NCBI GenBank assembly: GCA_012813795.1
Contig: GCA_012813795.1_4087.1
DNA length: 64,000 nt
From: a phage
Direction: 5' to 3' (one strand)
In this document: positions 1,798 to 55,057 of the stretch, piece after piece
How the letters are laid out: every line of letters begins with the position of its first letter
Numbering within the stretch: position 1 is the stretch's first letter
Notes under the pieces: model-generated
Database searches by the model: none
Seen by the model: the letters and a program-made list of their open reading frames with translations, nothing else
What the model was told of the DNA's origin: nothing
Translations under genes and position numbers: made by a program

Positions 1798-1826
1798 TTA
1801 AAAAAGGACTTGATTTCTCAAGTCCC
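1798..1826 (-). terminator. Intrinsic terminator candidate after the HNH gene
   Basis: 8-bp stem ggacttga/tcaagtcc (1806-1825) with 4-nt loop, followed on the minus strand by a U6 run (plus-strand aaaaaa 1800-1805). Confidence 0.55.
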
Positions 1827-1838
1827 TATTATAACATA

Positions 1839-2451: not shown

Positions 2452-2766
2452 CTATTCCTTAACTTTTATGTTAACACGAATATTTTGGTCTTGGAGTTTG
2501 CGAATTGTATCAATTAGTGCATCATATCTCAGTGCACATTCATTGTATATGGAATCCCAACGCGTCAGAACGTTAAGAATTTCATCACCAGCATATCCTC
2601 TATTACCATGTGAGTCAACAACAATTTTTTTAGGAATTGGTGTATCTTCTTCGCATCGTTCTAATAAGATTTCCTGGGTGATTATTGGTGACGCTTGAAC
2701 TGGAACCTTATTAGAACACCCAGTGATAAACATAAAAGTAATCAAGAATGTTAATATGTATTTCAT
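2452..2766 (-). CDS. o-spanin (outer-membrane lipoprotein subunit)
   Basis: Signal peptide with lipobox FITGC then a short mature protein; start overlaps the stop of the upstream i-spanin-like gene by 4 nt, as in the T4 pseT.3/pseT.2 pair. Confidence 0.6.
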   Translation of the reverse strand: MKYILTFLITFMFITGCSNKVPVQASPIITQEILLERCEEDTPIPKKIVVDSHGNRGYAGDEILNVLTRWDSIYNECALRYDALIDTIRKLQDQNIRVNIKVKE

Positions 2767-3137
2767 TTAAATTTCTCTCTAGCTGCAAGTGAATTTTGTT
2801 TTAGATCATTCAAAAGTTTTACCCCTTCTTCATCTAAACATACATTTCTATAAACTTCACGCTCAATAATAACTGGTACTTTAGTTTCTATTACCTTTGC
2901 ATTATTTTGCATTATATGTTTAGTTTCTACATAGTTTTTGGTATTTTGGCTTTCAATTTTACTTAAAGCCGCATCTACTTTCTTCTCTATTTTTAATTCA
3001 ATACTTTCTTTATACCCAGTATAAAAAGTATTAGCCTTCCAGCCACCAAAAGTACATGATGCCATCAGGAGAACAAACGCAATTGGTTTCCAGAACGGTA
3101 TCAGTACTTTTGAAACAATAATATCTAGTACACTCAT
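2763..3137 (-). CDS. i-spanin (inner-membrane subunit)
   Basis: N-terminal transmembrane helix (IAFVLLMASCTFGGW) followed by charged coiled-coil-like region; immediately upstream of lipoprotein gene. Confidence 0.55.
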   Translation of the reverse strand: MSVLDIIVSKVLIPFWKPIAFVLLMASCTFGGWKANTFYTGYKESIELKIEKKVDAALSKIESQNTKNYVETKHIMQNNAKVIETKVPVIIEREVYRNVCLDEEGVKLLNDLKQNSLAAREKFK

Positions 3138-3182: not shown

Positions 3183-3608
3183 TTAGCGTTTATCGATCAT
3201 TGTTTGTACATGTTCTACGAGATGTACGATTCTGGAATCACCTGATTCATACTTATCTTCGATCTCAACCTTAAATTCATCTTCAAGTTCCATGATCATT
3301 TCTACCCAGTCCAGTGAATCAAATTTGAATTTTTCTTCAATTTCTAAGGAGGTTAAATGTAAATTCATCAGTACATCTGCCTCTGATACATCACCATAAC
3401 GTCCAGAAATGAATTTTGCAATTGCTTTCTCAACGTCAGTTGGTCCACGTGTACGGTATTCTGGTTCAAGGAACCATTCACCCTTATTGATAGCTTCTAA
3501 TTCTAGTTTAATTTCATGCATTACTTTATAACGATCAGTACTTTTATGGATGCGGCTAACTTCGCGATTCAGTACACGTAGTGCATCAATAATTGTTGAA
3601 TTCAGCAT
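3183..3608 (-). CDS. Acyl-carrier-protein-like protein with N-terminal extension
   Basis: C-terminal half carries the ACP phosphopantetheine-attachment signature FDSLDWVEMIMELEDEFKVEIED (DSL serine followed by acidic helix). Confidence 0.5.
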   Translation of the reverse strand: MLNSTIIDALRVLNREVSRIHKSTDRYKVMHEIKLELEAINKGEWFLEPEYRTRGPTDVEKAIAKFISGRYGDVSEADVLMNLHLTSLEIEEKFKFDSLDWVEMIMELEDEFKVEIEDKYESGDSRIVHLVEHVQTMIDKR

Positions 3609-3617
3609 ATAATCCTC

Positions 3618-4859
3618 TTATTTTTTACCATACCACTGCATTTCTCGAATATCGATTAGAACTTTTGCAGCTAGTTGAATGTTTGGTTTCTTTGGTAGAA
3701 CTGACTTAGGATACACCACATTGCGGATATAGTCAACCTTTTCATTGAAATAATCCATGACTTCTTCATATTTCCATTTGCCGTTGCGGATATCCATTAG
3801 CATATCAGCATCAGGACGTTTAACAAGGATAATACCGCTTTGTAATGCTTCTTCGGCACTATTTAGCAGCCTGATCGTATGCATAGCATGTTTTAAATCG
3901 AAGCCGTGCTGTGATTCCATAAGAGCACGTTTAGCATTACGATTCTCTTTCCATTTGTGATAACTTTTACGGTTCTCACTGTTCTCACTGTATTCTTTTT
4001 CATTGAATTTGACAATGAGTTCAGGTCGCACTTTCAATTCTTCAGTACTGCGTTCTTTGTTGAAATAACGTAAAGAACCATCAGCGTTAATTGTACTTTC
4101 ATTAGGATTGATAATAACACCAAAGATATTTTCACCGTAATGAATTAATTCGTACCCATTGTTATAATCCAATAAGTTGAAATCACGGTCTAGTACTTTA
4201 TCAGTACTGTAATTATGTACTAAACGTACAAAATGATACTGTTTCAACGGATGAGTTGAAACTAACTGCAATGAAGTATCACGCATGTATTTTTCAAAAT
4301 CAATTTTCTTAGCATTAAATGGATGTAGTTTAGAAGTATCTAAACGTTCTACCAAATAGTGTGGGAAATTTTCATACATCCATGCTAAAGTTTCATCTAC
4401 TGGAAAATCTTCTAAGATTTCATTTAGACGTTTTTCAGCAATACGCTCTTTATCCATCCACCCGTGGTGATTAGACATACGCTTAACCTGATTATATGCA
4501 TAACCGGTATAAGAGAATGCAATCTTAGAACTAAGTAATTGTTGATTGAATGTACGTAGATAATCATAGATTTCAGTACTTTCTACGATGTGTTCAGGAT
4601 CGACCCATAGTGATTCAAGAATATTTGGGTTAGCCTCTGTATATAGTCTTAAGTACTGGTTTAGTTCATAGAATTTAGTATCTTCTTCTCTTGAATCAGA
4701 AACTTCCTTTACATTATAAAAAGGCGTAAGGATGAATTCTTTGTTAGCAAGAAAAATACCACGATAATCCGTATCACTTTCAGGTGTACTGGTTCCATAC
4801 GCTTGTGAACCTGCTAAGTGCTTCACAATTGTTTGTTCAAGAAATTTGTTATTATTCAT
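3618..4859 (-). CDS. Pol-beta-superfamily nucleotidyltransferase (RlaP/PF10127-like)
   Basis: N-terminal HLAGSQAYGTSTPESDTDYRGIF fits the GS-x(9-13)-D-x-D minimal nucleotidyltransferase motif; 413 aa. Confidence 0.5.
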   Translation of the reverse strand: MNNNKFLEQTIVKHLAGSQAYGTSTPESDTDYRGIFLANKEFILTPFYNVKEVSDSREEDTKFYELNQYLRLYTEANPNILESLWVDPEHIVESTEIYDYLRTFNQQLLSSKIAFSYTGYAYNQVKRMSNHHGWMDKERIAEKRLNEILEDFPVDETLAWMYENFPHYLVERLDTSKLHPFNAKKIDFEKYMRDTSLQLVSTHPLKQYHFVRLVHNYSTDKVLDRDFNLLDYNNGYELIHYGENIFGVIINPNESTINADGSLRYFNKERSTEELKVRPELIVKFNEKEYSENSENRKSYHKWKENRNAKRALMESQHGFDLKHAMHTIRLLNSAEEALQSGIILVKRPDADMLMDIRNGKWKYEEVMDYFNEKVDYIRNVVYPKSVLPKKPNIQLAAKVLIDIREMQWYGKK

Positions 4860-5257
4860 AGATGTAATGTTAGCTCCTTAAGAAACCCATTATAGTACTT
4901 CATGAAATCTTTATGAAGAACTTTGTATTCTGATAAACTAAAACCTAGATTGATTATAGTATCTTCTTGAAAGAACTTTTCTTCTTCGGATAAATCCAGA
5001 GAAATAGATTGTTTGCCACCATTTAATATTTTAGTAAAGTGTAAACCATCATTATTGATTTCAACGTACATGAAGTTATTTTCACGGTCACGAGGGCAAA
5101 CAATATTAATGGAACTTTCACCAGTATCATCGTATTCGAATGATATTACATCATACTCCCCGATTCCATAAAATTGTTTATCACTCTTGTAACCACTATA
5201 TACTTTTTTATACGAATCCATCTGTCTTATGGTGCTATACACATCATCAAGATCCAT
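4856..5257 (-). CDS. hypothetical protein
   Basis: 133-aa ORF, 4-nt overlap with upstream gene. Confidence 0.45.
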   Translation of the reverse strand: MDLDDVYSTIRQMDSYKKVYSGYKSDKQFYGIGEYDVISFEYDDTGESSINIVCPRDRENNFMYVEINNDGLHFTKILNGGKQSISLDLSEEEKFFQEDTIINLGFSLSEYKVLHKDFMKYYNGFLKELTLHL

Positions 5258-5260
5258 ATA

Positions 5261-5764
5261 TTAACTCCTGTAATATTGTAAGTATTCGTTCTTTGCATCA
5301 TCCAATTCTTTTTGTTCCTGAATTTTCTTGTCGATATCTTTCACGTTAGTAATACTGTTATATAGTGCGTGAAGTACAAGAAAATCAGATACAGAAGTTG
5401 AAAAATCCTTCCACCCACCCGACATTTTAATACGCACACGTATATCACGTCTGTCCATCCAGAACATGAACCCTCGATTCCCACGTAAATCATTAATCAT
5501 ATACACTTTAAAACAAGAATCTCGTGTGCTGCTTTCTCGTCTTTCAAAATCTACATGAATACTGAACAAGTTTTTTGAACAGTACTTACAAAATGCATAG
5601 ATAACAGGATCACATTTTGAAAGAAGATATTTGTTTTGAATAATTTCTCTGCGATCTTTGTCTGATTTAATATTAGGTACTAATAAAGTACTTTTGTTTA
5701 AAATCAACGCAACTAAGTACTGAAGAATATCATTATCTTTTACTTTATGTTTACCGAAGATCAT
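5261..5764 (-). CDS. hypothetical protein, member 3 of tandem paralog triplet
   Basis: Shares S/T-D-x-D-R-R/K ... I ... K ... LS motif and C-terminal charged helix with 5764-6264 and 6274-6834. Confidence 0.5.
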   Translation of the reverse strand: MIFGKHKVKDNDILQYLVALILNKSTLLVPNIKSDKDRREIIQNKYLLSKCDPVIYAFCKYCSKNLFSIHVDFERRESSTRDSCFKVYMINDLRGNRGFMFWMDRRDIRVRIKMSGGWKDFSTSVSDFLVLHALYNSITNVKDIDKKIQEQKELDDAKNEYLQYYRS

Positions 5765-6264
5765 TAGTATAATCCTTTTAGTTTATTAAATTCATTAAGT
5801 TTATGCTGCTCGTATTCTAACTTCTTGTACTTTGTTTCAAGCTCACGAAGTGCAACGAGTAAATGAAACAAAAACATTTGTTCATGTTTAGGTAGAATAT
5901 TCGCATCTCCGTTAATATAAACAAATGTATGTTTTTCATCATAATCTTTAGATGAATATGTTACTGCATTAAAATCAACCTTAGTTTCGGTATCAAACAA
6001 TTTTACACGGTTGATATGATTACCATATATGAATACTGGTTCATATAACCAACGTTCACCGTATGGTTCTTTAACTAGGTCAGTGATTAGTTTCATTAGA
6101 GAATGAGAACTTAACATTTCTTTAATTTTAAGTATAGTTCTACGATCTTCATCAGTACTGATAATTTCTTTTAAAGAATAGCTTTTCATCAGTACTGGAA
6201 GAATTAATGTACACCACTCTACATTTTCTCTTTTGTGATCATTATTTTTCTTTTTGAAAAACAT
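5764..6264 (-). CDS. hypothetical protein, member 2 of tandem paralog triplet
   Basis: KEIISTDEDRRTILKIKEMLSSH aligns with KDFVKTDNDRKSLIELKYKLSKH in the upstream paralog. Confidence 0.5.
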   Translation of the reverse strand: MFFKKKNNDHKRENVEWCTLILPVLMKSYSLKEIISTDEDRRTILKIKEMLSSHSLMKLITDLVKEPYGERWLYEPVFIYGNHINRVKLFDTETKVDFNAVTYSSKDYDEKHTFVYINGDANILPKHEQMFLFHLLVALRELETKYKKLEYEQHKLNEFNKLKGLY

Positions 6265-6273
6265 AGTAACCTC

Positions 6274-6834
6274 TTAATATAAATCAGTTATTCTCTTTTG
6301 GATTTTGAATTTACGCTGTTCTTCTTCAATTTGTGATAACTTTTCTTTAATATCTTCAGCACCAATAATCACATGGAACAGGATCATTAACTCATCATCA
6401 TCAAGCATATCATAATGAACACCGAAGTTTGAAGAAACAACACATGACAAATCTCTTGATTGAATGATAGTTTCTTCGGTTCTGTGTTCAATCCCTGCTG
6501 GTGTATACTCAACCTTAAACATGATTGCATTTTTTAAATCGCGTAGTATGAATTCTTCATCACCACCCCACAGTTTTTTTTGAACCATAGACCAACGATC
6601 ACTGAATGGATTTTGGGTGTATTCTGCCAGTAATCCATATAGTTTATGCTTACTTAACTTGTACTTAAGTTCGATAAGTGATTTACGATCATTATCGGTT
6701 TTCACAAAATCTTTAAGAGTTACACTTTTGCATAGCAAACGAACTACTAGTGTATTCTGAAAGTGCTGCTCTTTTTCTTTTAAACGTTGTAACTGTGCGG
6801 GTGACAGTGGTGGTCTAAAACGTGATTGTACCAT
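6274..6834 (-). CDS. hypothetical protein, member 1 of tandem paralog triplet
   Basis: AGGAGG 7 nt upstream of ATG; paralogous to the two downstream genes. Confidence 0.5.
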   Translation of the reverse strand: MVQSRFRPPLSPAQLQRLKEKEQHFQNTLVVRLLCKSVTLKDFVKTDNDRKSLIELKYKLSKHKLYGLLAEYTQNPFSDRWSMVQKKLWGGDEEFILRDLKNAIMFKVEYTPAGIEHRTEETIIQSRDLSCVVSSNFGVHYDMLDDDELMILFHVIIGAEDIKEKLSQIEEEQRKFKIQKRITDLY

Positions 6835-6865
6835 AGATTCCTCCTAGTTTTTTAGCATTATACAG

Positions 6866-6896
6866 ATAAAAGAAAAGCCTGTCAATAGACAGGCTT
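6866..6896 (-). terminator. Intrinsic terminator candidate after fibre-like gene
   Basis: Stem agcctgtc/gacaggct (6876-6895) with loop aata; U-rich tract follows on the minus strand. Confidence 0.5.
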
Positions 6897-6902: not shown

Positions 6903-9671
6903 TTAACTCCAACGAGTACCAGATTGTGATGGTAACCCAGAACTAGCTGGGATAGCAGAACCACGATTGTAGGTACTTGGGCGGTATAGCAAGAATCTGG
7001 ACACTTTTTCAGACTCGATTGATGCAATACCATTAGCATCAGTTACTATCTTACCAATGTAGGTTGATGTCATAGTTTCTGATAATTGATATAGTGATAT
7101 CTGATACGAAGCTGTAGATGTACCTCTATCCATAACCGCATATATGTAGAATGTTGAATTATCTGGTGTAGTACTTATGGTAGATAAGTCTATCATAGTC
7201 GGTGGTATCTTTGCAAACTTTCCACCCAAGAAAACTGGTACTTCTTGTGAAAAGTACACGTTGAACCCTTGTGCCACATCCTGTGAAGCAACAACTAAGT
7301 ACTGTGATATCGTTTCATTACCAGATATTAGTTTATCCATATCTGCTTCAGTAGTACCACATACAGCAAAAACTGATTTAGTTTGATAATCGTTTTTGTT
7401 CATTTGGTAATATCCAAACCCAATCCCTGGAATTGTACCTATATCAAATTGTGCGTTTGAAATATAAGTTGTTTCCATATATCGTTGACTTGAAATAATA
7501 CCATTTTTCACTTTAGCAATCATGTTAGGATAACGAGTCCATCCTGGGGTATCAATGCCATATAAAATGTTCACACCTAAGTAGTTAAAACCACTAAACT
7601 TAGCAACCGTCATACCAGCCCAACGTTTGATCATTTCATTTGGTGAAATTTGGAATGTATTCGTGATTGATGTATATCTTGCTGTATCAACACTAATACC
7701 ACGTAAAATTATAGTACCACTTGTACCCAGTGCACTACATGATATTTCGGAAAAAATAATATAACACACGTTGGTAGTACCGTTTAGTGCAGAAGTGACT
7801 GCAATAGATTTAGAATATGTAGTATCAGGTACATAATAAAAAACAGTTTTATGTTCAGTTATTCCAGTCAATCCAGCTTTAGCAACGGCATTATAACCTA
7901 TACCTGATAATGTAGTTCCTGAAATTTCATATCTATCACTGTTAAAGTCCATTGTAACAGGGTCGAATTTTCCATAAGCTGGTTTATCGATACCTTCTAT
8001 TAAAGAAGATCCATAAGTGCTGACATTTCCATTGGCATCAACCAATGTTACCATACCTGCATATTTGTAATCAGTACTTAAATAGTGTCTATTACCTGAT
8101 GGTGCAAAACCATTCATTGTGGTATTTTGTTCCAAGTTTTTATAACTATAAGTTGGATTCTCACCTATTTCAGTAAAAACTGTACTATCATAACCATAAG
8201 AAATTCCATCAGCAGTACCAGAACATGCAACAAGTATCTTACGTTTATCAACGAAACGAACACCTATTAAGTTTTCACCTACAGGTGAACCATAAACGGG
8301 CATTACTTCTACGCGTTTTAAATTACTACCAGTACGTGTTTTAGCAACCCAACTATCATAAGGTGTACCAGAAACTTTGTATGTTTGTACTGCATAGGTC
8401 GGCATGGATGACCATCTTGCTTTGGTAGTGAAAACAAAACCATCAGAAGTTTGACAGATTGAACCATAGTTACCAAGTGCACCATCATAAAACCCTGTAA
8501 AGTTTTCCATATTGATTGAAAACGGGTTTCTCACTGTTATACTGCCAGTTGATGCATTAGCTGATACTCTGATTGGACCACGTTCAGAACCGTCAAGTGT
8601 CATTGTTTTAGTACTGATATCATATGTAAAGCTAATGCCAAGTGAATATACACTAGATGTTTTTGTTTCAGTAAAGACACGAAACCCTGGATATATCGCT
8701 ACTCTTATTTTTGTACCATCAGGGCTAAGAACTGCTTGGGTATTAAACGTGTAATGTTGCCAGTCATCGATTTTGGAAACCCCATTATCATATGCTATTA
8801 GTGCATCACCACCTGAACCCAATACTGAATAGCTATCATAAACGCGAATATTATTTGAAGCTGAATATGTTACATCTCGTATAGTTCTTCCTGAATAACC
8901 ACTAATTTGTGTTACTGTCGAAACTGAACCAGTATTAAATGCAGTTAAAGGTACTGTGTATATGATAAATGCACAACCGCGAACACTATTAAGAACACTT
9001 GAATCCCTACACCATATATAAACTGAATCATTTACGATGTGTGCATAGATTGGTTTATTTGTTATTGCTGTTTTTGGAATTCTACAGTGTTTATGAGCAG
9101 ATTCATTTAATGTTTCATTTGTTAATGTAAGGTAGTATGATGCTCTATCAGTTGATTCCCAAAATAGTAATTCATATGCATTTGACCCATAAAATTCATA
9201 AATGTAATCAGTGCTTGGTAGCACAGAAGGTCTATACATCGTGTTGGTTGTAATTATATTATCTTGAGTTAGTGTTTCTATATCTCTTATATTTTTAATA
9301 TAAGCATAATAGTAACCATACGAACTTCCATTTGTACCTGCACGTAAAATTACACCAGTACCATCATTTTCAATGATACAAGGTTGCATTATTTTTGCAA
9401 ATGAAAAGGAAGAAGCACCTTCAAATGTACCGTTAATACTCATCGGTAGGTAATCTTGATCACCTACCCTTGAAACTGGAAGCATATCAAACATCTGATC
9501 TACTTCCGCTTTGTCATAATATTGGTAAGTGATTTTACCAGCAGAATCAGCAGGGAATCCATTAAAGGAACGTAATGCATACTTTCCATTAATTTTCAAA
9601 TTCCCTAGTATTTCTGCGTTTCCTATAATTCGTCTCGAAGCCATATATATTCCTTTACCATTCTGTCCCAC
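6903..9671 (-). CDS. Fibre-like beta-rich structural protein (tail fibre / receptor-binding candidate), paralog 2
   Basis: 922 aa, S/T/G/N/Y-rich; N-terminal and C-terminal regions shared with 10256-12955, central region divergent. Confidence 0.5.
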   Translation of the reverse strand: MGQNGKGIYMASRRIIGNAEILGNLKINGKYALRSFNGFPADSAGKITYQYYDKAEVDQMFDMLPVSRVGDQDYLPMSINGTFEGASSFSFAKIMQPCIIENDGTGVILRAGTNGSSYGYYYAYIKNIRDIETLTQDNIITTNTMYRPSVLPSTDYIYEFYGSNAYELLFWESTDRASYYLTLTNETLNESAHKHCRIPKTAITNKPIYAHIVNDSVYIWCRDSSVLNSVRGCAFIIYTVPLTAFNTGSVSTVTQISGYSGRTIRDVTYSASNNIRVYDSYSVLGSGGDALIAYDNGVSKIDDWQHYTFNTQAVLSPDGTKIRVAIYPGFRVFTETKTSSVYSLGISFTYDISTKTMTLDGSERGPIRVSANASTGSITVRNPFSINMENFTGFYDGALGNYGSICQTSDGFVFTTKARWSSMPTYAVQTYKVSGTPYDSWVAKTRTGSNLKRVEVMPVYGSPVGENLIGVRFVDKRKILVACSGTADGISYGYDSTVFTEIGENPTYSYKNLEQNTTMNGFAPSGNRHYLSTDYKYAGMVTLVDANGNVSTYGSSLIEGIDKPAYGKFDPVTMDFNSDRYEISGTTLSGIGYNAVAKAGLTGITEHKTVFYYVPDTTYSKSIAVTSALNGTTNVCYIIFSEISCSALGTSGTIILRGISVDTARYTSITNTFQISPNEMIKRWAGMTVAKFSGFNYLGVNILYGIDTPGWTRYPNMIAKVKNGIISSQRYMETTYISNAQFDIGTIPGIGFGYYQMNKNDYQTKSVFAVCGTTEADMDKLISGNETISQYLVVASQDVAQGFNVYFSQEVPVFLGGKFAKIPPTMIDLSTISTTPDNSTFYIYAVMDRGTSTASYQISLYQLSETMTSTYIGKIVTDANGIASIESEKVSRFLLYRPSTYNRGSAIPASSGLPSQSGTRWS

Positions 9672-13032: not shown

Positions 13033-13191
13033 TTAACCGCCGTGTTTAGAAAATTCAACTGCTCTTAATTGTTTAAGTGCTTCTTTTCTGGTTGGGTGAC
13101 GACCGAGAACTTTCTTCCCTGTGTGGTCAGTAACAACCCACTCATTTCCACGTTTCTGTATCTTTTCCGAAATAATATCAAGATAACGCAT
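13033..13191 (-). CDS. Small ORF (52 aa) MRYLDIISEKIQKRGNEWVVTDHTGKKVLGRHPTRKEALKQLRAVEFSKHGG
   Basis: Below ORF-track size cutoff; ATG at 13191-13189 preceded by GGAG; start overlaps nrdG stop; ends just before terminator. Confidence 0.35.
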   Translation of the reverse strand: MRYLDIISEKIQKRGNEWVVTDHTGKKVLGRHPTRKEALKQLRAVEFSKHGG

Positions 13192-13657
13192 AATCTACTC
13201 CTTTACGAAGAATACGTTGATTATTAGAGCCTCTAAATGGTAATTCTAAATTCTTTTCTTCAAGAATAAATTTACCATCAACTAATACATCAATGTACTC
13301 TAGTATTGCGGAGGCATGATTATTTATTATTTCCTCTAAAGTATAACCACTCCAGCACCAAATATCTTTATTTGGATATTTTTCTTTTACTACTTTACAT
13401 AACTCAACAACAGTACTGATATTCTTTGGCATCAATGGATCACCACCAAGAAGTGACAACCCTTGTACATATGGCTTGTTAAGTTCATTCAGGATGATAT
13501 CAACTGTTTCAGTACTGAATTCTGAACCACTGCGATAATCCCATGCTTTTTCGTTGAAGCATTCTTCACATCCGTGGCTACACCCTGAAACAAAAAGGGA
13601 GCATCTAACTCCCTCTCCATTGACTAAATCATCCTTGATTATCGTCTGGTAATTCAT
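13178..13657 (-). CDS. nrdG: Anaerobic ribonucleotide reductase activating protein (radical SAM)
   Basis: N-terminal VNGEGVRCSLFVSGCSHGCEEC cysteine cluster typical of NrdG activases; directly downstream of nrdD. Confidence 0.85.
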   Translation of the reverse strand: MNYQTIIKDDLVNGEGVRCSLFVSGCSHGCEECFNEKAWDYRSGSEFSTETVDIILNELNKPYVQGLSLLGGDPLMPKNISTVVELCKVVKEKYPNKDIWCWSGYTLEEIINNHASAILEYIDVLVDGKFILEEKNLELPFRGSNNQRILRKGVDYALS

Positions 13658-13964
13658 CTAATATTGCACTCACTATTTCAACAAGAACATCTCCGTGACA
13701 TGATTTGGGCTTACAAAAGCACCCAAGACGCTTCCCAGCCAATTCAAGTAGTTCTTCGATAGTAACCTCACCATTATCAATTCTTTGGATAAGATACTCT
13801 CTGAACTTCTCAATCGACTCTTCTCGTGTCGGAACTATAAACTCTGCCTTTGTTTGTTTGTCATTAATGTGGGTAAATGGATTTCCCCATTTAGACCCAC
13901 GACCAATATACACATCATATGGTTCTTTATATTTGTTAACTACAATTGGTTTTAAGTCCATCAT
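13629..13964 (-). CDS. Conserved hypothetical protein with Cys/His cluster (DUF4326-like)
   Basis: [12 protein letters not shown] ... [15 protein letters not shown] motif pattern; 111 aa. Confidence 0.45.
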
Positions 13965-14323
13965 AGACCTTTAGTAAAAGTACGATTGATTACATCATCT
14001 TGTTGTTCTTTTGTTAGTGAATTGAAACGAACTGCATAACCACTAACACGAATTGTAAGTTGCGGATACTTTTCTGGATTATTTTGTGCATCAATGAGTT
14101 GTTCTTTAGATAGAACATTTACATTCAAGTGCTGACCACCTTCAATATTCGGTGCGTGTTGAATTTCCACATCACGCAGTACCTCACCATCAAAAGTACT
14201 CAAAAGTACTTCATCATCTTCGGAAATGGTCTTTGATACAATAATACGTGCAATATCATTTTCTATTAGCATGATAGTTCCACGGTGCTCACCAGACATG
14301 ACTTGTTTACCTTGAATTGACAT
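13961..14323 (-). CDS. grcA: Autonomous glycyl radical cofactor, GrcA/YfiD-like
   Basis: C-terminal [10 protein letters not shown] ... [21 protein letters not shown] ... RTFT is near-identical to the conserved GrcA glycyl-radical domain. Confidence 0.85.
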
Positions 14324-14332
14324 AATATCTCC

Positions 14333-16138
14333 TTACATGTGTTGTATACGTTGAATAACTTCAGCTTGTTTACCTTTATTGAACGGGCGACTATTTGGGG
14401 CACTAAGATATCCCGAAACTCTGCGAATAACCGACATTGTGCGTTCATTGCGGTTGTCACATACCGGACAATGGAAACCATTTTTATCTACACTAAATTC
14501 ACCCTCAAAATCACATTCAAAACACTTATCGACCTTCTGATTAATACCAAAATATGGAATTTTAGTATAAGCAAAATTTATTAATGTTTCAAGTGCTTGT
14601 ATATTATTAGCTAGATTTGGTGTTTCAACATAGCTAATATTACCACCATTGCTTAGATAAGCAAAGTTTTCCTCATAATCCCATTTAGCAAAAGGTGTAC
14701 TTTCAACCCATACTGGTTGATGGAATGAGTTAGTGATAAAGTCACGTTTCAGTACTGAAGGATGTTTTGCCTCAATACAACGTGCAAATTTATAACATAG
14801 TGATTCTGCTGGTGTACCGTAAAGACTAAATGCAATGTTACTCTCTTTTTTGAATTCATCACATTTTGCTTTCATGTAGTTCAAAATACTCATACAGAAC
14901 TCTTTACTAATAGAACCAGTGAGGATCTCTGAACACTCAGATAACCCAACATAACCAATACTGATACTAGCATAACCATTATAAAATAAATGGTCAATAG
15001 TGTCTTCAGGATCAAGACGTGCAATCGCACCTTCAGCGAAAAGTATAGGGTTTTGTTTTGCCTTTGTACCTTTTAAACGTTCTACACGGTTCATCTGTGC
15101 TCTGTAAGCAATATTCATGTGCTCATCAATCTTATCAAAGAAATCACCATCAGACTCACTCTCAAGAGCAATTAGTGGTAAGTTGATAGACACAACGCCA
15201 AGGTTGAATCTACCATTGTATTTTTCTTCTCCTTGTATATTTTCCCATTTCCCTAAGAAACTTCTGCATCCCATAGGAGTAACAGGAATAGTTGTGCTTC
15301 CAGTAACTTTTTGATTCAAAGGTACGGATACAAAATCAGGATAGATGCGTTTAGCTGCACAACGCATAGCTAATTGTTTTAAGTCATAATTACAATCAGT
15401 ACTGTTCATATTAATTCCATCCTGAAGAAAGAATATTACTTTAGGAAATACTGGAGTAATCTTATCTTTACCTAGTCCATTTTCATGTACTTTCAAATAT
15501 TGTTCAGTGATTAGTTTTTCAAATTTAGATGTACCTAATCCTAAACTCAAAGAAATGAACGCAGCCTGGCCATTAGTACTGATCATTGAGTTTGTTTGAT
15601 ATAGAATTGTTTGACAACCGTCATAAACTTCCTTACGCAACTCATCTTCGATGAATTCAGTGCTAAGATTGTATTTCTTTTGTTTTTCTAGGAGTTTATC
15701 CCATGACTTTTGTACATATGGTGCAAGGCCAGTGTCAATGTGAGCCAACGACTGACCACCGTATTGTGAGCTTGCAACAGCCTGAACGATCTGGGTTAGT
15801 ACTGTACAAGCTACCCCAAAGCTTTTTGGTTCTTCAATCTTGGCACAACCAATCATGAAGCCATTAGCAAGCATATCAGGATAATTAACTAAACAACAGT
15901 TTGTTAATGGGCTAATGTAATAGTCTAAATCATGAATATGACCGTAACCTTCATTATGCCACTTCATCAATTCATCAGGAATCACATCTTGGGAATAATG
16001 TTTAGAAAGAATACCTGCCAATAAATCACGATGTGTATTAACACATTTAGCGTCTTTATTTGCATTTTCGTTTGTTAAATCAGCGTTACTCTGGTTGAGG
16101 AAGTTAGTTACGTCCGTATATAATTTATCTATTTGCAT
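14333..16138 (-). CDS. nrdD: Anaerobic ribonucleoside-triphosphate reductase (class III), intact and uninterrupted
   Basis: 601 aa; C-terminal Zn ribbon CFECDFEGEF ... CPVCDN and glycyl radical motif RRVSGYLSAPNSRPFNKGKQAEV. Confidence 0.9.
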   Translation of the reverse strand: MQIDKLYTDVTNFLNQSNADLTNENANKDAKCVNTHRDLLAGILSKHYSQDVIPDELMKWHNEGYGHIHDLDYYISPLTNCCLVNYPDMLANGFMIGCAKIEEPKSFGVACTVLTQIVQAVASSQYGGQSLAHIDTGLAPYVQKSWDKLLEKQKKYNLSTEFIEDELRKEVYDGCQTILYQTNSMISTNGQAAFISLSLGLGTSKFEKLITEQYLKVHENGLGKDKITPVFPKVIFFLQDGINMNSTDCNYDLKQLAMRCAAKRIYPDFVSVPLNQKVTGSTTIPVTPMGCRSFLGKWENIQGEEKYNGRFNLGVVSINLPLIALESESDGDFFDKIDEHMNIAYRAQMNRVERLKGTKAKQNPILFAEGAIARLDPEDTIDHLFYNGYASISIGYVGLSECSEILTGSISKEFCMSILNYMKAKCDEFKKESNIAFSLYGTPAESLCYKFARCIEAKHPSVLKRDFITNSFHQPVWVESTPFAKWDYEENFAYLSNGGNISYVETPNLANNIQALETLINFAYTKIPYFGINQKVDKCFECDFEGEFSVDKNGFHCPVCDNRNERTMSVIRRVSGYLSAPNSRPFNKGKQAEVIQRIQHM

Positions 16139-22618: not shown

Positions 22619-24058
22619 TTACATATTTTCTTCTGCAAACTCTGCAAGTGCAGAACGTACAACACCTTCCAATTCAATGATACGACACCCTTCCCAATCT
22701 TTGAATTTTTCAGTTACATATGTCAAACCACTATTAACTGGACTAATAAACTTACTATCAATCTGTGCTAAGTTACCCATAATGATAACCTTACAGTTTT
22801 GACCAGCACGGGTAAGAATAGTCTTTGCCTGTGCAGGGGTGATGTTCTGGAATTCATCTACAATTAGAATTGTATTAGTAAAAGAACGACCACGAATAAA
22901 GTTCAATGCTTTAAACTGCATTACGTTACGTTTGAGAATCTCTTCAATGCTACCTTGTGGGTTAGCATCATCTTTGTGTAGATACTCTAGAGCATCGATT
23001 GCAGCCCCACAGAATGGGATGACCTTTTCAGCTTCAGAACCAGGCAAGAAACCAATTTCTTCAAATTGAGAATCTTGTGTTTTGGAGAAGATTATACGAT
23101 CATATTTACGTTTTTCCAGCACTAATTCAAGGGAAGTAGCAACGGTAATCAGTGTTTTACCAGTACCTGCTGAACCTAGTAGTACTGTCAAATGTACATC
23201 AGGGTCAAGAATACTGTTAATTGCTAGTGCCTGTTGAATATTCTTTGCTTTAATATCCCAAACTTTAGCACGAAGAGCGATACTTTGACCAATATCCTGG
23301 AATACCAAAATATCTTCAGGTGTTAGTGAACCGTCTTCTTCTTCGATAGCAGATTGACCTTCGTATACGAATAGTACATCAGCATTATCATATAGATAAT
23401 CACCAATACATAGATTATCTGGTAGAACATCTTGAATCAATGCGGTTGGAATATAGTGATATAGACGGCGACCTTCTTGTTGGGATTTAATTTCAGCATT
23501 GTTAACTTCACTGAATGTTTTCCAGAAATCAATATCAAGGTGGTGCTGTCCAATATGAATCAACTCACTATCTTCGATTGCAACGTCATGGCGGTAATCT
23601 TGTACCTCAACACCGTAGCTCATTGCTTTGATACGCATGTTAATGTCGCGAGTTACCAGTACTGATTGTGATGCCAAAGCCACTAGAATGATTTTGTCAT
23701 CTGGTACAGTACTTTTAAGTAGAGTTTCTACTTTATCTTCACTGCCGCCCATACGAATAAGTGCTTCAGCTTCTTCATTCGTCATAACGAATAGCTTACT
23801 GGATGCATCCATATTTTTGTGGATATTGGCAATATTAACACCAGTACTGCTGATTTCTTCATGAGTAGCATCTTTCAGAATTGCATCGATGTTACGGATT
23901 GCGAAACGTGCATCACGTGATACGTCAACATTACGGCTCTTGATTGAATCAAGTTCTTCAAGAACAGTGAATGGTAGAATCACTGCTGCCCCATCAAATG
24001 CTACGGTTGCATTTGGATCGGATAGTAGTACGTTTGTGTCAATTGTGTATTTTTTCAT
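22619..24058 (-). CDS. phoH: PIN-domain / PhoH-like ATPase fusion (PhoH2/YlaK-type)
   Basis: N-terminal PIN-like acidic residues (YTIDTNVLL ... LEELD); C-terminal Walker A LLGSAGTGKT and PhoH core ILIVDEFQN; start set at ATG 24058 with AAGGA upstream. Confidence 0.8.
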   Translation of the reverse strand: MKKYTIDTNVLLSDPNATVAFDGAAVILPFTVLEELDSIKSRNVDVSRDARFAIRNIDAILKDATHEEISSTGVNIANIHKNMDASSKLFVMTNEEAEALIRMGGSEDKVETLLKSTVPDDKIILVALASQSVLVTRDINMRIKAMSYGVEVQDYRHDVAIEDSELIHIGQHHLDIDFWKTFSEVNNAEIKSQQEGRRLYHYIPTALIQDVLPDNLCIGDYLYDNADVLFVYEGQSAIEEEDGSLTPEDILVFQDIGQSIALRAKVWDIKAKNIQQALAINSILDPDVHLTVLLGSAGTGKTLITVATSLELVLEKRKYDRIIFSKTQDSQFEEIGFLPGSEAEKVIPFCGAAIDALEYLHKDDANPQGSIEEILKRNVMQFKALNFIRGRSFTNTILIVDEFQNITPAQAKTILTRAGQNCKVIIMGNLAQIDSKFISPVNSGLTYVTEKFKDWEGCRIIELEGVVRSALAEFAEENM

Positions 24059-24122
24059 AAAACATCCTTGAGTTATGAGCACATCCTTGTGCTCTACGGT
24101 AGATTATAGACTCAGACACTTC

Positions 24123-51905: not shown

Positions 51906-52838
51906 TCAAAATAGTCCAGGTTCCACCTGAAATACTTTCAAGCCTAGTAGCTTACGCCACATGAATACAACTTGTGATCTATCATCAAATACTTTCTTAA
52001 CATCGTAATGATTAACAACGTTATTCATATACAACTCGAATTTGACAACATCATCAGGACGTTTATCATCGATAGCTCGCATTAACAATACATCGTAGGG
52101 AATGCCCCAATTCTTAAGCCACTGTTCAGTATCAGCACGACACCCTTCAGTACGCCCACTCATGACGATTACCTTACGCTTATGGAAAACAGCCTCAGCA
52201 ATGACAGACAGAATTACTTCTTCATCTGGTGTATCCTGAAGGACAGTACTTTCATCAAACGGGTTACGTCCCCACTTATGAGCAAGAGTACCGTCGATAT
52301 CAACAATGATAGCAGCTTCACGTGCATTACCATAGTAACCAATGTGCATCGCCTTACTATAATAGTACGTATTTGCCATAGTGTCAATGATTTCATCTTG
52401 TACTGAACGCTCACGCTGGAGGTTATATTTCTTACAAAGTTTTACGAACTCTTTAATCTTAAAGAATTCATGAACATCTGCACCACGGTCTTCATTAGGT
52501 ACAAAATCATCATAGAAGTTCTTTTCTTTGTAATCATAACCATTATCTTTAGCCCACATTTTCCATTGATCACGGAAATGTGGTTTAAGGTTCGTATCGG
52601 ATACGATGATATTCCAACTATTCTCCGCTGCTGAATTTGCTGCACTGAACTGTAAATTAGTTACGTACTTCTCATTAGCATCGTTGAATTTGTAAGCATC
52701 ATGTGACCCAGCCATAGATTCACGAATATCATCACGGTTGATGTTGATAGTCTTGGATTTGGCTTTTTTAATCTCTTGCACTGCCCATGTAGTTTTACCA
52801 CACCCTGGCAATCCAACTGTTAGTGTAATAGTTGGCAT
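51906..52838 (-). CDS. pseT: Polynucleotide 5'-kinase / 3'-phosphatase
   Basis: N-terminal Walker A GLPGCGKTT and C-terminal HAD phosphatase motif IVDIDGTLA. Confidence 0.85.
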   Translation of the reverse strand: MPTITLTVGLPGCGKTTWAVQEIKKAKSKTININRDDIRESMAGSHDAYKFNDANEKYVTNLQFSAANSAAENSWNIIVSDTNLKPHFRDQWKMWAKDNGYDYKEKNFYDDFVPNEDRGADVHEFFKIKEFVKLCKKYNLQRERSVQDEIIDTMANTYYYSKAMHIGYYGNAREAAIIVDIDGTLAHKWGRNPFDESTVLQDTPDEEVILSVIAEAVFHKRKVIVMSGRTEGCRADTEQWLKNWGIPYDVLLMRAIDDKRPDDVVKFELYMNNVVNHYDVKKVFDDRSQVVFMWRKLLGLKVFQVEPGLF

Positions 52839-53911: not shown

Positions 53912-55057
53912 CTAAAAATCCTTTAGTACATCTTTGTAGTACTTTAGTAAAGTCTCTTTATAATCGACACTTTTGCCATTGTACAACGCAAAGGCCAAGC
54001 CTTGTCGGTTCAATACATTAGGTAAATCTTGCTGAACCTTTTGAGCGAATTCCTTTCGCTCTAAGTGCTTGTATGCATGGACGAAGCTTTCTACCTCATC
54101 TTGTAAAGCATTATAGCACGAAAATACCAATTGTTCCATTCTTAATATCTTATCCATAGCATATGTATCAGTACTGAACAATTGTTTTAAGTCATCACTT
54201 GCACCAGTCAGTACAGCTTCATATAAATGGGAATCAATAAGAATGGAATCTTTTGTTAAATGCAAAGAGCAATACCAGTCAGTTTTGATTTTGCACATTG
54301 TACCATCTTTCATTATACACACAAAACCTTCAATGTCAAGCATAGAACGTACTTTATCGATTGACTCTTTAAATGTAGGCATAATCGGGAATGTATGATG
54401 AATGTCATTACCTGTCATATTAGTACTGTACTGTGAAAGGCATGGAAACTTATCACGTAGTGCTTTACCGCATAACAACTCACCACTAATACGATGACGA
54501 ACGTTAAGAACAAATAACTGTTCCACCTGATATGGTAACACAATTCGATACTCTGGGCTTGTGTATTCCAGATTCACAGTATAGCCCAAACGGTCTGCTT
54601 CATCAATGTATTGATAGAGATTTTGGTTCTCGTTCAAAAGTCGAGTACTGTTAATAGCATGGTCAGAAGATAACGAAGTGTGTGATTTACAACGGATTTC
54701 ACCATCGTTATCACGGAATGTGCTGATGATAGAACCATCTAGCTTAGGCATTACAACCGCAATATCATCACAGGTAGTATCAGTACTGAACATTGTGTAC
54801 GGGTTTTCATATGCATTGAAGAACTTTTTCATTGTACGTGCTGCACAACGAATCATAATTCCGTTGGAATCGATTTCCCACATAGAACCACGAGTTTCTA
54901 GTGCATTTTTATTTGTGAAATCGGTATAAGATGCCAGACGATAGGTGAATACACGGTATAAACCACCACCAGGGCTTGTATGATCTATATAGAAAAATGC
55001 ATCATTAGATTCACATAGTTCCATTAAATCATTGTATATTTCTCGCAAATTACTCAT
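53912..55057 (-). CDS. rnlA: RNA ligase 1
   Basis: Nucleotidyltransferase motif I VVMPKLDGSI (KxDG); N-terminus LMELCESNDAFFY and VCIMKDGTMCKIKTDWY parallel T4 Rnl1 as recalled. Confidence 0.85.
   Translation of the reverse strand: MSNLREIYNDLMELCESNDAFFYIDHTSPGGGLYRVFTYRLASYTDFTNKNALETRGSMWEIDSNGIMIRCAARTMKKFFNAYENPYTMFSTDTTCDDIAVVMPKLDGSIISTFRDNDGEIRCKSHTSLSSDHAINSTRLLNENQNLYQYIDEADRLGYTVNLEYTSPEYRIVLPYQVEQLFVLNVRHRISGELLCGKALRDKFPCLSQYSTNMTGNDIHHTFPIMPTFKESIDKVRSMLDIEGFVCIMKDGTMCKIKTDWYCSLHLTKDSILIDSHLYEAVLTGASDDLKQLFSTDTYAMDKILRMEQLVFSCYNALQDEVESFVHAYKHLERKEFAQKVQQDLPNVLNRQGLAFALYNGKSVDYKETLLKYYKDVLKDF

What the first reader, a model, noticed from the sequence alone, without database searches (positions are those of the whole stretch)
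3183..4859. Phage-encoded acyl-carrier-protein-like gene paired with a Pol-beta-type nucleotidyltransferase
Gene 3183-3608 ends with a convincing ACP phosphopantetheine-attachment signature (FDSLDWVEMIMELEDEFKVEIED) preceded by a ~60-aa extension. The gene immediately upstream (3618-4859) has a GS-x(9-13)-D-x-D nucleotidyltransferase motif (HLAGSQAYGTSTPESDTDYRG), and the two are separated by 9 bp, suggesting co-expression. A carrier protein plus nucleotidyltransferase pair is not a standard T4 module. It could be a small-molecule or protein modification system, or the nucleotidyltransferase could belong to the RNA-repair set with pseT and rnlA.
Basis: partly seen in the sequence, partly recalled or inferred. 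Interest (0 to 1): 0.6.

Follow-up and report, generated by a model that had tools for sequence, protein, structure and literature searches.

The report
Neighbouring RNA-repair enzyme and degenerate carrier protein
Both genes are real, but they are neighbours by accident of gene loss in a jumbo E. coli phage: one is a known RNA-end-repair nucleotidyltransferase (RlaP), and the other is an acyl-carrier-protein look-alike whose cofactor-attachment serine is not kept in its closest relatives.

Summary
On the minus strand, 3618-4859 encodes a 413-aa Pol-beta nucleotidyltransferase with GS...DxD. Nine bp downstream, 3183-3608 encodes a 141-aa protein with an N-terminal helical hairpin, an ACP four-helix domain and a DSLD motif.

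The window is an Asteriusvirus jumbo phage (121Q/PBECO4 group, closest to phage A4), not a T4-like phage.

The "carrier + NTase module" reading is not supported:
- The NTase is an RlaP (PF10127, 64 bits). This family adds 1-2 nucleotides to damaged RNA 3' ends. It occurs in 590 phage records, and 67 of 80 sampled loci have no ACP-like gene nearby.
- In related jumbo phages the two genes lie 1.4-3.6 kb apart. They abut only in the window and three sampled loci (L003, L004, L008).
- The constant neighbours of the ACP-like gene are the spanin pair just downstream (20/20 loci) and, outside Asteriusvirus, a ~195-aa putative oxidoreductase upstream (14/20).
- The "phosphopantetheine serine" is S, W, T, N, R, E, D or K in the Asteriusvirus/RaK2 subclade. 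It is Trp in 121Q, PBECO4, Sharanji and others.

So the carrier function is dispensable. The gene is still under purifying selection (dN/dS 0.18-0.36). Interest is modest.

The parts
3618..4859 (-). RlaP-family (PF10127) Pol-beta nucleotidyltransferase, 413 aa. The N-terminal catalytic domain is about residues 10-132, with G17-S18, D29-x-D31 and D60. A helical insert of about 60 residues (~140-200) is specific to RaK2-like jumbo phages. The C-terminal part is a helical domain.
   Evidence: Pfam 64.1 bits vs cutoff 23. phrog_388 1e-73. 417 homologues, nearly all of those listed carrying PF10127. Invariant G17 S18 S28 D29 D31 E59 D60 in alignment A3. AF2 pLDDT 89. Best, weak, structural matches are Pol-beta NTases: KNTase, HalB, ANT.
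3609..3617 (-). 9-bp intergenic spacer GAGGATTAT carrying the ribosome-binding site of the ACP-like gene.
   Evidence: Read directly from the sequence.
3183..3608 (-). ACP-like gene, 141 aa, PHROG 18343. It has a near-neutral N-terminal helical hairpin (residues 1-55, pI 8.1) and an acidic ACP four-helix domain (residues 56-141, pI 4.5).
   Evidence: dN/dS is 0.18-0.36, so it is a functional gene.
3315..3317 (-). Codon TCA for Ser98, the position equivalent to the phosphopantetheine-attachment Ser of ACP. It is not conserved among orthologues.
   Evidence: Alignments. Ser in the window and A4. Trp in 121Q, PBECO4, Sharanji, Ecwhy_1, vB_Ec-M-J and SD-15_S21. Asn in JNE01. Thr in RaK2. R, E, D and K in metagenomic relatives.
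2763..3137 (-). i-spanin (Rz-like, N-terminal transmembrane helix). It follows the ACP-like gene in every related locus.
   Evidence: phrog_1152 1.6e-25. Follows the ACP-like gene in 20/20 loci.
2452..2766 (-). o-spanin (Rz1/LysC-like lipoprotein, lipobox ITGC).
   Evidence: Pfam LysC 8.7e-4, below its cutoff. phrog_2425. Lipobox read from the translation. Present in 20/20 loci.
4856..5257 (-). 133-aa protein of unknown function. Its stop overlaps the NTase start (ATGA).
   Evidence: phrog_22376. Conserved upstream of the NTase in L004, L008 and RaK2.
6857..6885 (-). Perfect sigma-70 consensus promoter (TTGACA-17-TATAAT). It could drive the nine-gene unit from 6834 to 1839 that contains both genes.
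   Evidence: This is a consensus match only. The total number of promoter-like sites is not above the shuffled expectation.
1804..1827 (-). Terminator-like hairpin plus T-run after the HNH gene. It is the likely end of the transcription unit.
51906..52838 (-). Polynucleotide kinase-phosphatase (T4 PseT type). A probable functional partner of the RlaP NTase.
   Evidence: PF25109 HAD_PNKP 2.7e-42 and AAA_33.
53912..55057 (-). T4 Rnl1-type RNA ligase. A probable functional partner of the RlaP NTase.
   Evidence: PF09511 1.6e-15 and PF20819 7.2e-15.

Best explanation
These are two functionally independent genes that abut here only because intervening genes were lost in this phage lineage.

(1) NTase, 3618-4859. 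It is an RlaP-family RNA 3'-end nucleotidyltransferase. After host anticodon nucleases or other RNases cut and trim tRNA or RNA, it would add back one or two nucleotides to the 3'-OH. The phage's Pnkp and Rnl1, encoded 47-50 kb away in the same window, would heal and seal the break. Family membership is shown. The activity is inferred from characterised Pseudomonas RlaPs.

(2) ACP-like protein, 3183-3608. It descends from a type II ACP and is fused to an N-terminal helical hairpin. The family is restricted to RaK2-like jumbo phages. In the Asteriusvirus/RaK2 branch the attachment serine is freely replaced. The acidic 'recognition helix' is kept (D97, D100, E103, E109, F112), and the gene stays under purifying selection. 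It therefore most likely acts without a phosphopantetheine arm, as a protein-docking module. The fold, the loss of constraint on the Ser and the purifying selection are shown. The docking role is inferred. The partner is unknown. Candidates are host ACP-client enzymes (a decoy role) or a partner in the adjacent lysis cassette. In this phage the retained Ser98 may be modified by host AcpS, but the function should not depend on that.
For: NTase:
- PF10127 at 64 bits. Catalytic G-S, D-x-D and a third Asp are invariant in 19 diverse homologues.
- The model shows an N-terminal beta/alpha NTase domain and a C-terminal helical domain.
- PMC12776372 reports that RlaP adds 1-2 NMP to RNA 3'-OH and that T4 NrdC.11 is an RlaP.
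- PMC7824862 states that RlaP is the most prevalent NTase of jumbo phages and that its distribution tracks RNA ligases.
- Pnkp and Rnl1 are in the window. A cREC domain and a Nudt16-like Nudix are there too.

Independence of the two genes:
- The NTase-to-ACP-like distance runs from adjacent to 3.6 kb across 19 related loci (contexts).
- No ACP-like gene lies near 67 other NTase loci.
- NTase identity between distant relatives is 69-77%, while ACP-like identity is 27-35%.

ACP-like protein:
- ACP homology and fold.
- The Ser site is variable, with 8 different residues. D97, D100 and E109 are invariant or nearly so.
- dN/dS is 0.18-0.36.
- No PPTase was detected.
- There is precedent for an essential ACP that has lost the Ser (to Phe) and works by protein docking: apicomplexan mACP (PMC8547962).
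Against: - No experiment exists on this phage's proteins.
- The characterised RlaPs belong to a different sequence cluster from the phage forms, and the phage form carries a ~60-aa insert of unknown role.
- Rnl1 and Pnkp are not adjacent to the NTase here, and they sit within 6 kb in only 2 of 80 other phage loci. The RNA-repair link therefore rests on family membership and genome-level co-occurrence.
- The window's own protein does retain Ser98 and an AcpS-compatible helix II, so it could still be a holo-carrier in this particular phage.
- In the more distant GAP32/Eneladusvirus branch the Ser is conserved (14/14 sequences). The family's ancestral function was therefore probably carrier-dependent.
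- The two genes are very likely co-transcribed here, which does not exclude a lineage-specific functional link.
Confidence: 0.6

Rival explanations
1. The ACP-like protein and the NTase form one small-molecule or protein-modification system, with the NTase activating or transferring a group to or from the carrier.
For: The genes are 9 bp apart with a shared orientation and probably one transcript. They are also adjacent in vB_Ec-M-J, Ecwhy_1, L004 and L008. Both genes stay within one syntenic block in all RaK2-like jumbo phages.
Against: - One to five unrelated genes separate them in 15 of 19 related loci where both genes are present.
- The NTase family is widespread without any ACP and has a demonstrated RNA substrate (PMC12776372).
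- The carrier Ser is not conserved.
- Carrier-protein loading enzymes are, from my own knowledge, ANL adenylases or acyltransferases rather than Pol-beta NTases.
- The apparent NTase/ACP-like fusion in phage CMSTMSU is a 1-nt homopolymer deletion in an UNVERIFIED record.
Confidence: 0.05
2. In this phage the ACP-like protein is a true holo-carrier. Host AcpS phosphopantetheinylates Ser98, and the protein shuttles an acyl or aminoacyl group for a phage-directed lipid or envelope modification.
For: Ser98 sits in a canonical D-S-L-D context with an intact acidic helix II. The Ser is conserved in 14/14 GAP32/Eneladusvirus-type relatives. In the sampled loci those genes are translationally coupled to a conserved ~195-aa protein, which some records annotate as an oxidoreductase.
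Against: - That 195-aa partner is absent from the window and from all Escherichia Asteriusvirus records.
- The nearest relatives (62-72% identity) carry Trp, Thr or Asn at the site and are still under purifying selection.
- No acyl-transfer, adenylation or PPTase gene was found in the window.
- Pfam and NCBIfam ACP models score below their cutoffs.
Confidence: 0.15
3. The ACP-like protein is an accessory of the lysis cassette. It would work with, or regulate, the i-spanin/o-spanin pair that always follows it.
For: The ACP-like gene is followed directly by i-spanin and o-spanin in 20/20 loci across at least four genera, despite rearrangements upstream. The ACP-spanin proximity was also noted for Eneladusvirus (PMC7760394).
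Against: - The wider block is also syntenic: DUF7325 in most loci and HNH in many. Linkage may therefore be inheritance rather than function.
- From my own knowledge, o-spanin lipidation uses phospholipid donors (Lgt, Lnt), not acyl-ACP.
- The protein is predicted cytoplasmic, with no signal peptide or TM segment, whereas spanins act in the periplasm.
- No endolysin or holin is in the block.
Confidence: 0.12
4. The ACP-like protein is a virion-associated or assembly protein with no enzymatic or decoy role.
For: The Eneladusvirus homologue annotated as acyl carrier protein was detected by LC-MS/MS of phage preparations (PMC7760394). The gene lies next to tail-fibre cassettes.
Against: That MS list of 89 proteins also contains nucleotide-metabolism and lysis proteins, so carry-over is likely. 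A perfect sigma-70 promoter upstream suggests early or host-RNAP expression rather than late structural expression (weak evidence).
Confidence: 0.08

Closest known systems
[quoted passage not shown] Examples are P. fluorescens and P. aeruginosa RlaP and T4 NrdC.11.
   Same: Strong Pfam match. The G-S / D-x-D / third Asp catalytic set is present. The architecture is an N-terminal NTase domain plus a C-terminal helical domain. It is encoded in a genome that also has Pnkp and an RNA ligase (PMC12776372, PMC7824862).
   Different: It has a ~60-residue helical insert (about residues 140-200) that the ~350-aa phage forms lack. It is not adjacent to the RNA ligase. It aligns with T4-like phage homologues only over the N-terminal ~150 residues, at ~27-30% identity. 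Its activity is untested.
Bacterial type II acyl carrier protein (AcpP; B. subtilis ACP 1HY8/1F80, E. coli AcpP 1T8K)
   Same: Four-helix fold (the best matches have target TM of 0.7-0.78). Acidic helix II with D-S-L-D...E...E...F. The domain pI is 4.5.
   Different: It has an extra conserved N-terminal two-helix hairpin. The attachment Ser is not conserved in orthologues. It scores below the Pfam and NCBIfam ACP cutoffs. There is no FAS, PKS or NRPS context. It shows no special similarity to host E. coli AcpP (26% identity, against 37-38% to the B. subtilis ACP chains 1HY8 and 1F80).
Apicomplexan mitochondrial ACP (P. falciparum mACP), a phosphopantetheine-independent ACP
   Same: It is an ACP-fold protein that has lost the modified Ser to a bulky hydrophobic residue (Phe there, Trp in most Asteriusvirus isolates examined). 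It keeps the helix II glutamates at +5 and +11 and remains functional through protein docking (PMC8547962).
   Different: mACP has a known partner (Isd11-Nfs1) and a fixed substitution. Here the site varies among 8 residues, the window's copy still has Ser, and no partner is known. The two are an analogy with no established common descent.
'Acyl carrier protein' genes of RaK2-like jumbo phages (PHROG 18343; Serratia phage BF, Yersinia fHe-Yen9-03/04, Erwinia pEa_SNUABM_12/47, GAP32)
   Same: They are homologous over the full length, including the N-terminal hairpin. They occupy the same position immediately upstream of the spanin pair (PMC7760394).
   Different: Those genes keep the Ser (14/14 sequences). 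Where the locus was sampled, they overlap an upstream ~195-aa putative oxidoreductase gene. The window's lineage has lost that gene, and the Ser is unconstrained there.

Membership tests
RlaP / PF10127 nucleotidyltransferase | Significant match to the family model above its curated threshold | tested here: met
   64.1 bits against a gathering score of 23, E 2e-17. Nearly all of the 120 listed homologues carry PF10127.
RlaP / PF10127 nucleotidyltransferase | Pol-beta catalytic signature: hG[GS] followed by D-x-D, plus a third conserved acidic residue (three conserved Asp per PMC12776372) | tested here: met
   G17 S18, D29, D31 and D60 are invariant in alignment A3 of 19 sequences down to 44% identity.
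RlaP / PF10127 nucleotidyltransferase | N-terminal NTase domain plus C-terminal helical domain, closed by a C-terminal helix | tested here: inconclusive
   The AF2 secondary structure fits: beta/alpha in residues 10-94 and helices in 287-410. The PfRlaP crystal structure is not in the PDB copy, and Foldseek gives only weak Pol-beta NTase hits (E >= 0.03).
RlaP / PF10127 nucleotidyltransferase | Genomic association with an RNA ligase or RNA-repair genes | tested here: inconclusive
   Pnkp and Rnl1 are in the same window but 47-50 kb away. Only 2 of 80 phage NTase loci have Rnl1 or Pnkp within 6 kb. Genome-level co-distribution is reported in PMC7824862.
RlaP / PF10127 nucleotidyltransferase | Adds 1-2 NMP to the RNA 3'-OH | not testable with these tools
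   This needs a biochemical assay.
Acyl carrier protein (functional holo-carrier, PF00550) | Four-helix ACP fold | tested here: met
   AF2 pLDDT 81.5. All top 50 Foldseek PDB hits are ACPs or ACP-containing complexes; the best have target TM of 0.7-0.78.
Acyl carrier protein (functional holo-carrier, PF00550) | Match to curated ACP/PP-binding models above threshold | tested here: not met
   PP-binding scores 19.5 bits against a cutoff of 20.8. Eleven NCBIfam ACP models score 14-31 bits against cutoffs of 66-146.
Acyl carrier protein (functional holo-carrier, PF00550) | Ser of the D-S-L motif present in this protein | tested here: met
   Ser98, codon 3317-3315.
Acyl carrier protein (functional holo-carrier, PF00550) | Attachment Ser strictly conserved among orthologues | tested here: not met
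   The site is S, W, T, N, R, E, D or K in the Asteriusvirus/RaK2 subclade. It is Trp in 121Q, PBECO4, Sharanji, Ecwhy_1, vB_Ec-M-J and SD-15_S21.
Acyl carrier protein (functional holo-carrier, PF00550) | A cognate phosphopantetheinyl transferase and acyl-loading or acyl-using enzymes | tested here: inconclusive
   Pfam scans of most window ORFs gave no ACPS/Sfp, adenylation or acyltransferase hit. The rest of the ~350-kb genome was not scanned with profiles, and host AcpS could serve.
PHROG 18343 (N-terminally extended ACP-like proteins of RaK2-like jumbo phages) | Full-length match including the N-terminal hairpin, and a position directly upstream of the spanin pair | tested here: met
   phrog_18343 at 1.3e-40 over residues 2-138. 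Spanins follow in 20/20 loci.

The most novel reading that the evidence does not exclude
The ACP-like protein belongs to a viral lineage of phosphopantetheine-independent ACPs. As far as the literature I searched shows, such proteins are otherwise described only in apicomplexan mitochondria. It would keep the ACP recognition helix and act as a decoy for host AcpP-client proteins. From the literature, apo-ACP is a potent inhibitor of E. coli glycerol-3-phosphate acyltransferase (PMC3896788). Alternatively it would dock onto a phage partner in the lysis block. Either way it would shut down or redirect envelope lipid synthesis late in infection. Its fast evolution relative to its neighbours would reflect an arms race with the host target.
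Probability: 0.2. Interest if true: 0.6.

Novelty: new variant of a known kind. Interest (0 to 1): 0.3.

Why it matters
For annotation, the pair should not be read as a carrier/NTase modification system. The NTase should be named RlaP and grouped with the phage's Pnkp and Rnl1 as counter-defence against host tRNA or RNA nucleases.

Several GenBank records label the neighbouring gene 'acpP / acyl carrier protein / D-alanyl carrier protein'. One example is Sharanji, whose copy has Trp in place of the essential Ser. Those labels imply a function that these proteins cannot all have.

The biological point of some interest is a phage-specific ACP derivative that no longer needs its prosthetic-group site. 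It would be a rare second example of a cofactor-independent ACP. It may also be a small, fast-evolving host-interaction protein worth testing. The rest is ordinary jumbo-phage gene content.

Tried and rejected
- PADLOC defence models: no hit for the ACP-like protein, the NTase or the 133-aa upstream protein.
- PDB sequence search with the NTase: no hit. Foldseek gave only weak Pol-beta NTase matches, because the RlaP crystal structure is not in the library.
- Gene fusion as evidence of linkage: BFVD listed a 432-aa protein, A0A2Z5HFQ2, 66% identical to the ACP-like protein. A 432-aa CDS in phage CMSTMSU fuses the NTase C-terminus to the ACP-like gene and is presumably that entry. The fusion results from a 1-nt deletion in an A-run, in an UNVERIFIED record full of fragmented ORFs. 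It was rejected as an artefact.
- PPTase search: no Pfam ACPS/Sfp hit in the window ORFs scanned. About 20 small paralogous ORFs between 46 and 61 kb were left out of the concatenated scan. The AcpS tblastn found only Microcystis, Staphylococcus, Listeria and Enterococcus phage records.
- Identity of the conserved ~195-aa upstream partner in related phages: no Pfam hit, only PHROGs of unknown function, and no credible PDB sequence hit. It has an invariant HxD...H...R pattern, and a few records annotate it as 'oxidoreductase'.
- Adjacency of Rnl1 or Pnkp to the NTase in other phages: only 2 of 80 loci.
- tRNA genes in the window: none.
- Homologues of the A4 and 121Q tail-fibre genes that separate the two genes in those phages: no tblastn hit in the window.
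They were repeated with A2.
Full report
**What is in the sequence**

- The NTase gene is 3618-4859 (413 aa).
- A 9-bp spacer, GAGGATTAT, follows and carries a GAGG ribosome-binding site.
- The ACP-like gene is 3183-3608 (141 aa).
- The quoted motifs are present: G17-S18...D29-x-D31 in the first protein, and F-D-S98-L-D-W...E-D-E-F in the second. Ser98 is the TCA codon at 3317-3315.

The window is not T4-like. Megablast places it in the genus Asteriusvirus, the ~350-kb E. coli jumbo phages of the 121Q/PBECO4 group. The closest relative is phage A4, at 95% identity.

**The nucleotidyltransferase**

It matches Pfam PF10127 (RlaP) at 64 bits against a cutoff of 23, and phrog_388 at 1e-73. It has 417 homologues, and nearly all of the 120 listed carry PF10127.

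An alignment of 19 homologues down to 44% identity keeps G17, S18, D29, D31 and D60 invariant. These are the Pol-beta G-S / D-x-D / third-Asp set.

The AlphaFold model (pLDDT 89) has an N-terminal beta/alpha domain and a C-terminal helical domain. It also has a ~60-residue helical insert (about residues 140-200) that the ~350-aa phage forms lack. Foldseek against the PDB returns only weak matches, all of them Pol-beta NTases such as kanamycin NTase, Hailong HalB and ANT(4'). The RlaP crystal structure is not in that library.

The literature describes the family as follows:
- RlaP means 'RNA ligase-associating Pol-beta'. Two Pseudomonas RlaPs add one or two NMPs to the 3'-OH of damaged RNA. They are needed to restore aminoacylation of over-trimmed tRNA. 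T4 NrdC.11 is an RlaP (PMC12776372).
- RlaP is the most prevalent NTase of jumbo phages, and its distribution tracks RNA ligases (PMC7824862).

The window encodes a PseT-type Pnkp (51906-52838) and a T4 Rnl1-type ligase (53912-55057). It also encodes a cyclic-phosphate-processing receiver domain, a Nudt16-like Nudix, a Sir2 and a PIN-PhoH protein. By tblastn the NTase occurs in 590 phage records. These include T4-like phages, where the match lies near annotated thioredoxin and homing-endonuclease genes.

The NTase is therefore an ordinary member of a known RNA-repair family. Adjacency to Rnl1 or Pnkp is rare in phages, at 2 of 80 loci. The link is therefore at genome level, not operon level.

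**The ACP-like protein**

Homology to ACP is genuine.
- A profile of the family hits 91 PDB chains; the 60 listed are all ACPs, best 9e-6.
- PHROG ACP family 5934 scores 7e-11.
- The model (pLDDT 81.5) shows two N-terminal helices (residues 2-19 and 25-41) followed by an ACP four-helix domain.
- All top 50 Foldseek PDB hits are ACPs or ACP-containing complexes; the best have target TM of 0.7-0.78.
- The ACP domain is acidic (pI 4.5) and the hairpin is near neutral (pI 8.1).

Curated ACP models are nevertheless not satisfied. Pfam scores 19.5 against 20.8, and NCBIfam scores are far below their cutoffs.

An exhaustive HMM search of 1.84 billion representative proteins found only 23 hits. The full-length ones are all from RaK2-like jumbo phages. 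The N-terminally extended form is therefore a small, phage-specific family (PHROG 18343).

**The decisive test: is the Ser conserved?**

It is not. The residues at the Ser98 position are as follows:

| Group | Residue at the site |
|---|---|
| Close orthologues (62-94% identity) | Ser in the window, A4 and four metagenomic sequences |
| Close orthologues | Trp in 121Q, PBECO4, Sharanji, Ecwhy_1, vB_Ec-M-J, SD-15_S21 and others |
| Close orthologues | Thr in one sequence |
| Phage JNE01 | Asn |
| Phage RaK2 | Thr |
| More distant members of the same subclade | Arg, Glu, Asp, Lys or Ser |

The flanking D97 and D100 and the helix II residue E109 are invariant or nearly so. E103 and F112 are invariant within the close Asteriusvirus set. 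The whole subclade with the variable site shares Trp at position +3.

In the more distant GAP32/Eneladusvirus/CBB-type branch the Ser is kept in all 14 sequences.

The gene is not decaying. dN/dS is 0.18-0.36, about three times that of the NTase (0.055-0.10) but clearly under purifying selection.

The gene diverges much faster than its neighbours. It is 27-35% identical where the NTase is 69-77% and the spanins are 41-59%.

The function of this protein in the window's lineage therefore cannot depend on a phosphopantetheine arm.

No PPTase was found in the window ORFs scanned. An AcpS tblastn found none in any Asteriusvirus.

**Are the two genes a pair?**

I compared 20 loci carrying the ACP-like gene.
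- The NTase sits immediately upstream only in the window and in L003, L004 and L008. Ecwhy_1, which was not in the 20-locus table, has the same arrangement.
- In A4, 121Q and JNE01, two tail-fibre genes (~3.5 kb) separate them. In PBECO4, Sharanji and SD-15_S21 a large tail-type gene likewise sits directly upstream of the ACP-like gene.
- In RaK2, GAP32 and other non-Asteriusvirus relatives, 1.4-1.9 kb of paralogous ~150-aa genes plus a conserved ~195-aa gene intervene.
- In L007, five genes (2.3 kb) intervene.
- In L008 the NTase is truncated to 287 aa.

None of the 67 loci carrying the shorter NTase forms has any ACP-like ORF within 6 kb.

The one apparent NTase/ACP-like fusion is a 432-aa CDS in phage CMSTMSU. 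It results from a single-base deletion in an A-run, in an UNVERIFIED record.

The constant neighbours of the ACP-like gene are different:
- The i-spanin and o-spanin genes follow it directly in 20/20 loci.
- A ~195-aa protein (phrog_21561) precedes it in 14/20, and its reading frame overlaps the start of the ACP-like ORF in the loci inspected. This protein has an invariant HxD...H...R pattern, and a few records annotate it as 'oxidoreductase'.
- That gene is absent from the window and from all Escherichia Asteriusvirus records.

The 9-bp juxtaposition in the window is therefore best explained by deletion of intervening genes within a syntenic block, not by a conserved module.

The two genes are probably co-transcribed. 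A perfect TTGACA-17-TATAAT promoter at 6885-6857 and a terminator-like hairpin at 1827-1804 frame nine genes. These are consensus matches only.

**Most likely mechanism**

The NTase repairs 3'-trimmed RNA ends ahead of Pnkp/Rnl1 healing and sealing. Family membership is shown and the activity is inferred.

The ACP-like protein most likely works as a cofactor-independent docking module that retains the ACP recognition helix. There are two relevant precedents:
- P. falciparum mitochondrial ACP replaced the Ser with Phe. It functions by binding Isd11 through the conserved glutamates at +5 and +11 (PMC8547962). The corresponding E103 and E109 are conserved here.
- Apo-ACP is a potent inhibitor of E. 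coli glycerol-3-phosphate acyltransferase (reviewed in PMC3896788).

A decoy role against host ACP clients is therefore conceivable. I give it about 0.2. The strict linkage with the spanins was also noticed for Eneladusvirus, where the homologue was detected by LC-MS/MS (PMC7760394). This leaves open a lysis-accessory or virion-associated role. A genuine holo-carrier role in this particular phage, which still has Ser98, cannot be excluded.

**Verdict**

- The 'carrier + NTase system' interpretation is not supported.
- The NTase is a known kind.
- The ACP-like gene is already annotated as ACP in several relatives. It is better described as a degenerate, N-terminally extended ACP variant whose attachment site is dispensable.
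- Overall interest is modest.

Noticed in passing
window 6857-6896: A perfect sigma-70 consensus promoter (TTGACA-17-TATAAT, 12/12, minus strand) overlaps a 9-bp-stem hairpin. On both strands the hairpin scores as a terminator. It sits between the tail-fibre gene (6903-9671) and the small-gene block, so it looks like a terminator/promoter junction.
   Followed up: partly
window 5261-6834: Three tandem paralogous genes (167, 166 and 186 aa) lie upstream of the 133-aa gene and the NTase. Two to four copies of the same family occur at the same place in related jumbo phages (L004, L008, RaK2). Their function is unknown.
   Followed up: partly
L001 2501-5915 (phage A4), L002 1499-4811 (121Q), L094 585-3933 (JNE01), versus window 3609-3617: The junction between the NTase and the ACP-like gene is a gain/loss site for tail-fibre cassettes. 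A4, 121Q and JNE01 carry a ~930-aa plus ~170-210-aa tail-fibre pair there. The window has nothing at that site and no homologue of those two genes anywhere in its 64 kb. This is probably a host-range polymorphism.
   Followed up: partly
L015 8602-9189, L011 3973-4578 (and 12 other loci); absent from the window: A conserved ~195-aa protein (phrog_21561) has an invariant HxD...H...R pattern and a few 'oxidoreductase' annotations. In the loci inspected its reading frame overlaps the start of the ACP-like ORF. This holds in RaK2, GAP32, BF, CBB and Yersinia/Erwinia jumbo phages. Distant homologues occur in Acinetobacter phages. It has been lost from all Escherichia Asteriusvirus genomes.
   Followed up: partly
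L015 7193-8630, L011 3113-4031: A family of paralogous ~150-170-aa proteins ends in ...DYDCGY / YECGY and has a GYTPxWNDGExC motif (phrog_10375). They fill the space between the NTase and the 195-aa gene in RaK2- and GAP32-like phages. They gave no Pfam hit.
   Followed up: no
window 22619-26060: A cluster of possible RNA/NAD conflict genes: PIN-PhoH fusion (22619-24082), cyclic-phosphate-processing receiver domain cREC_REC (24419-24751), Nudt16-like Nudix (24763-25311) and a Sir2-family protein (25308-26060).
   Followed up: no
window 13178-16138: An anaerobic ribonucleotide reductase set: NrdD (14333-16138, with its own glycyl-radical domain) and an NrdG-like activase (13178-13657). A separate 120-aa ORF (13961-14323) matches only the C-terminal glycyl-radical motif and may be a GrcA-like spare part. 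A DUF4326 ORF lies at 13629-13964.
   Followed up: no
L090 3175-4473 (phage CMSTMSU, MH494197.1) and the Sharanji, fEgEco12 and phAPEC6 records: There are database annotation problems. CMSTMSU carries an artefactual 432-aa NTase/ACP-like fusion caused by a homopolymer deletion. Sharanji labels its copy 'acpP acyl carrier protein' although it has Trp at the attachment site. fEgEco12 labels its copy 'D-alanyl carrier protein 1'.
   Followed up: yes
L008 4763-6004: In one metagenomic relative the NTase gene is only 287 aa (the C-terminal part, 73% identical). A 378-bp stretch with no called gene sits where the catalytic N-terminal domain should be. This may be a pseudogenised or split RlaP.
   Followed up: no
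window 59177-60524 and 49576-50213: Small tandem ORFs (~90-115 aa) show weak paralogy (21-28% identity). They are part of a long run of ~100-aa genes of unknown function between 46 and 61 kb that surrounds the Pnkp and Rnl1 genes.
   Followed up: partly
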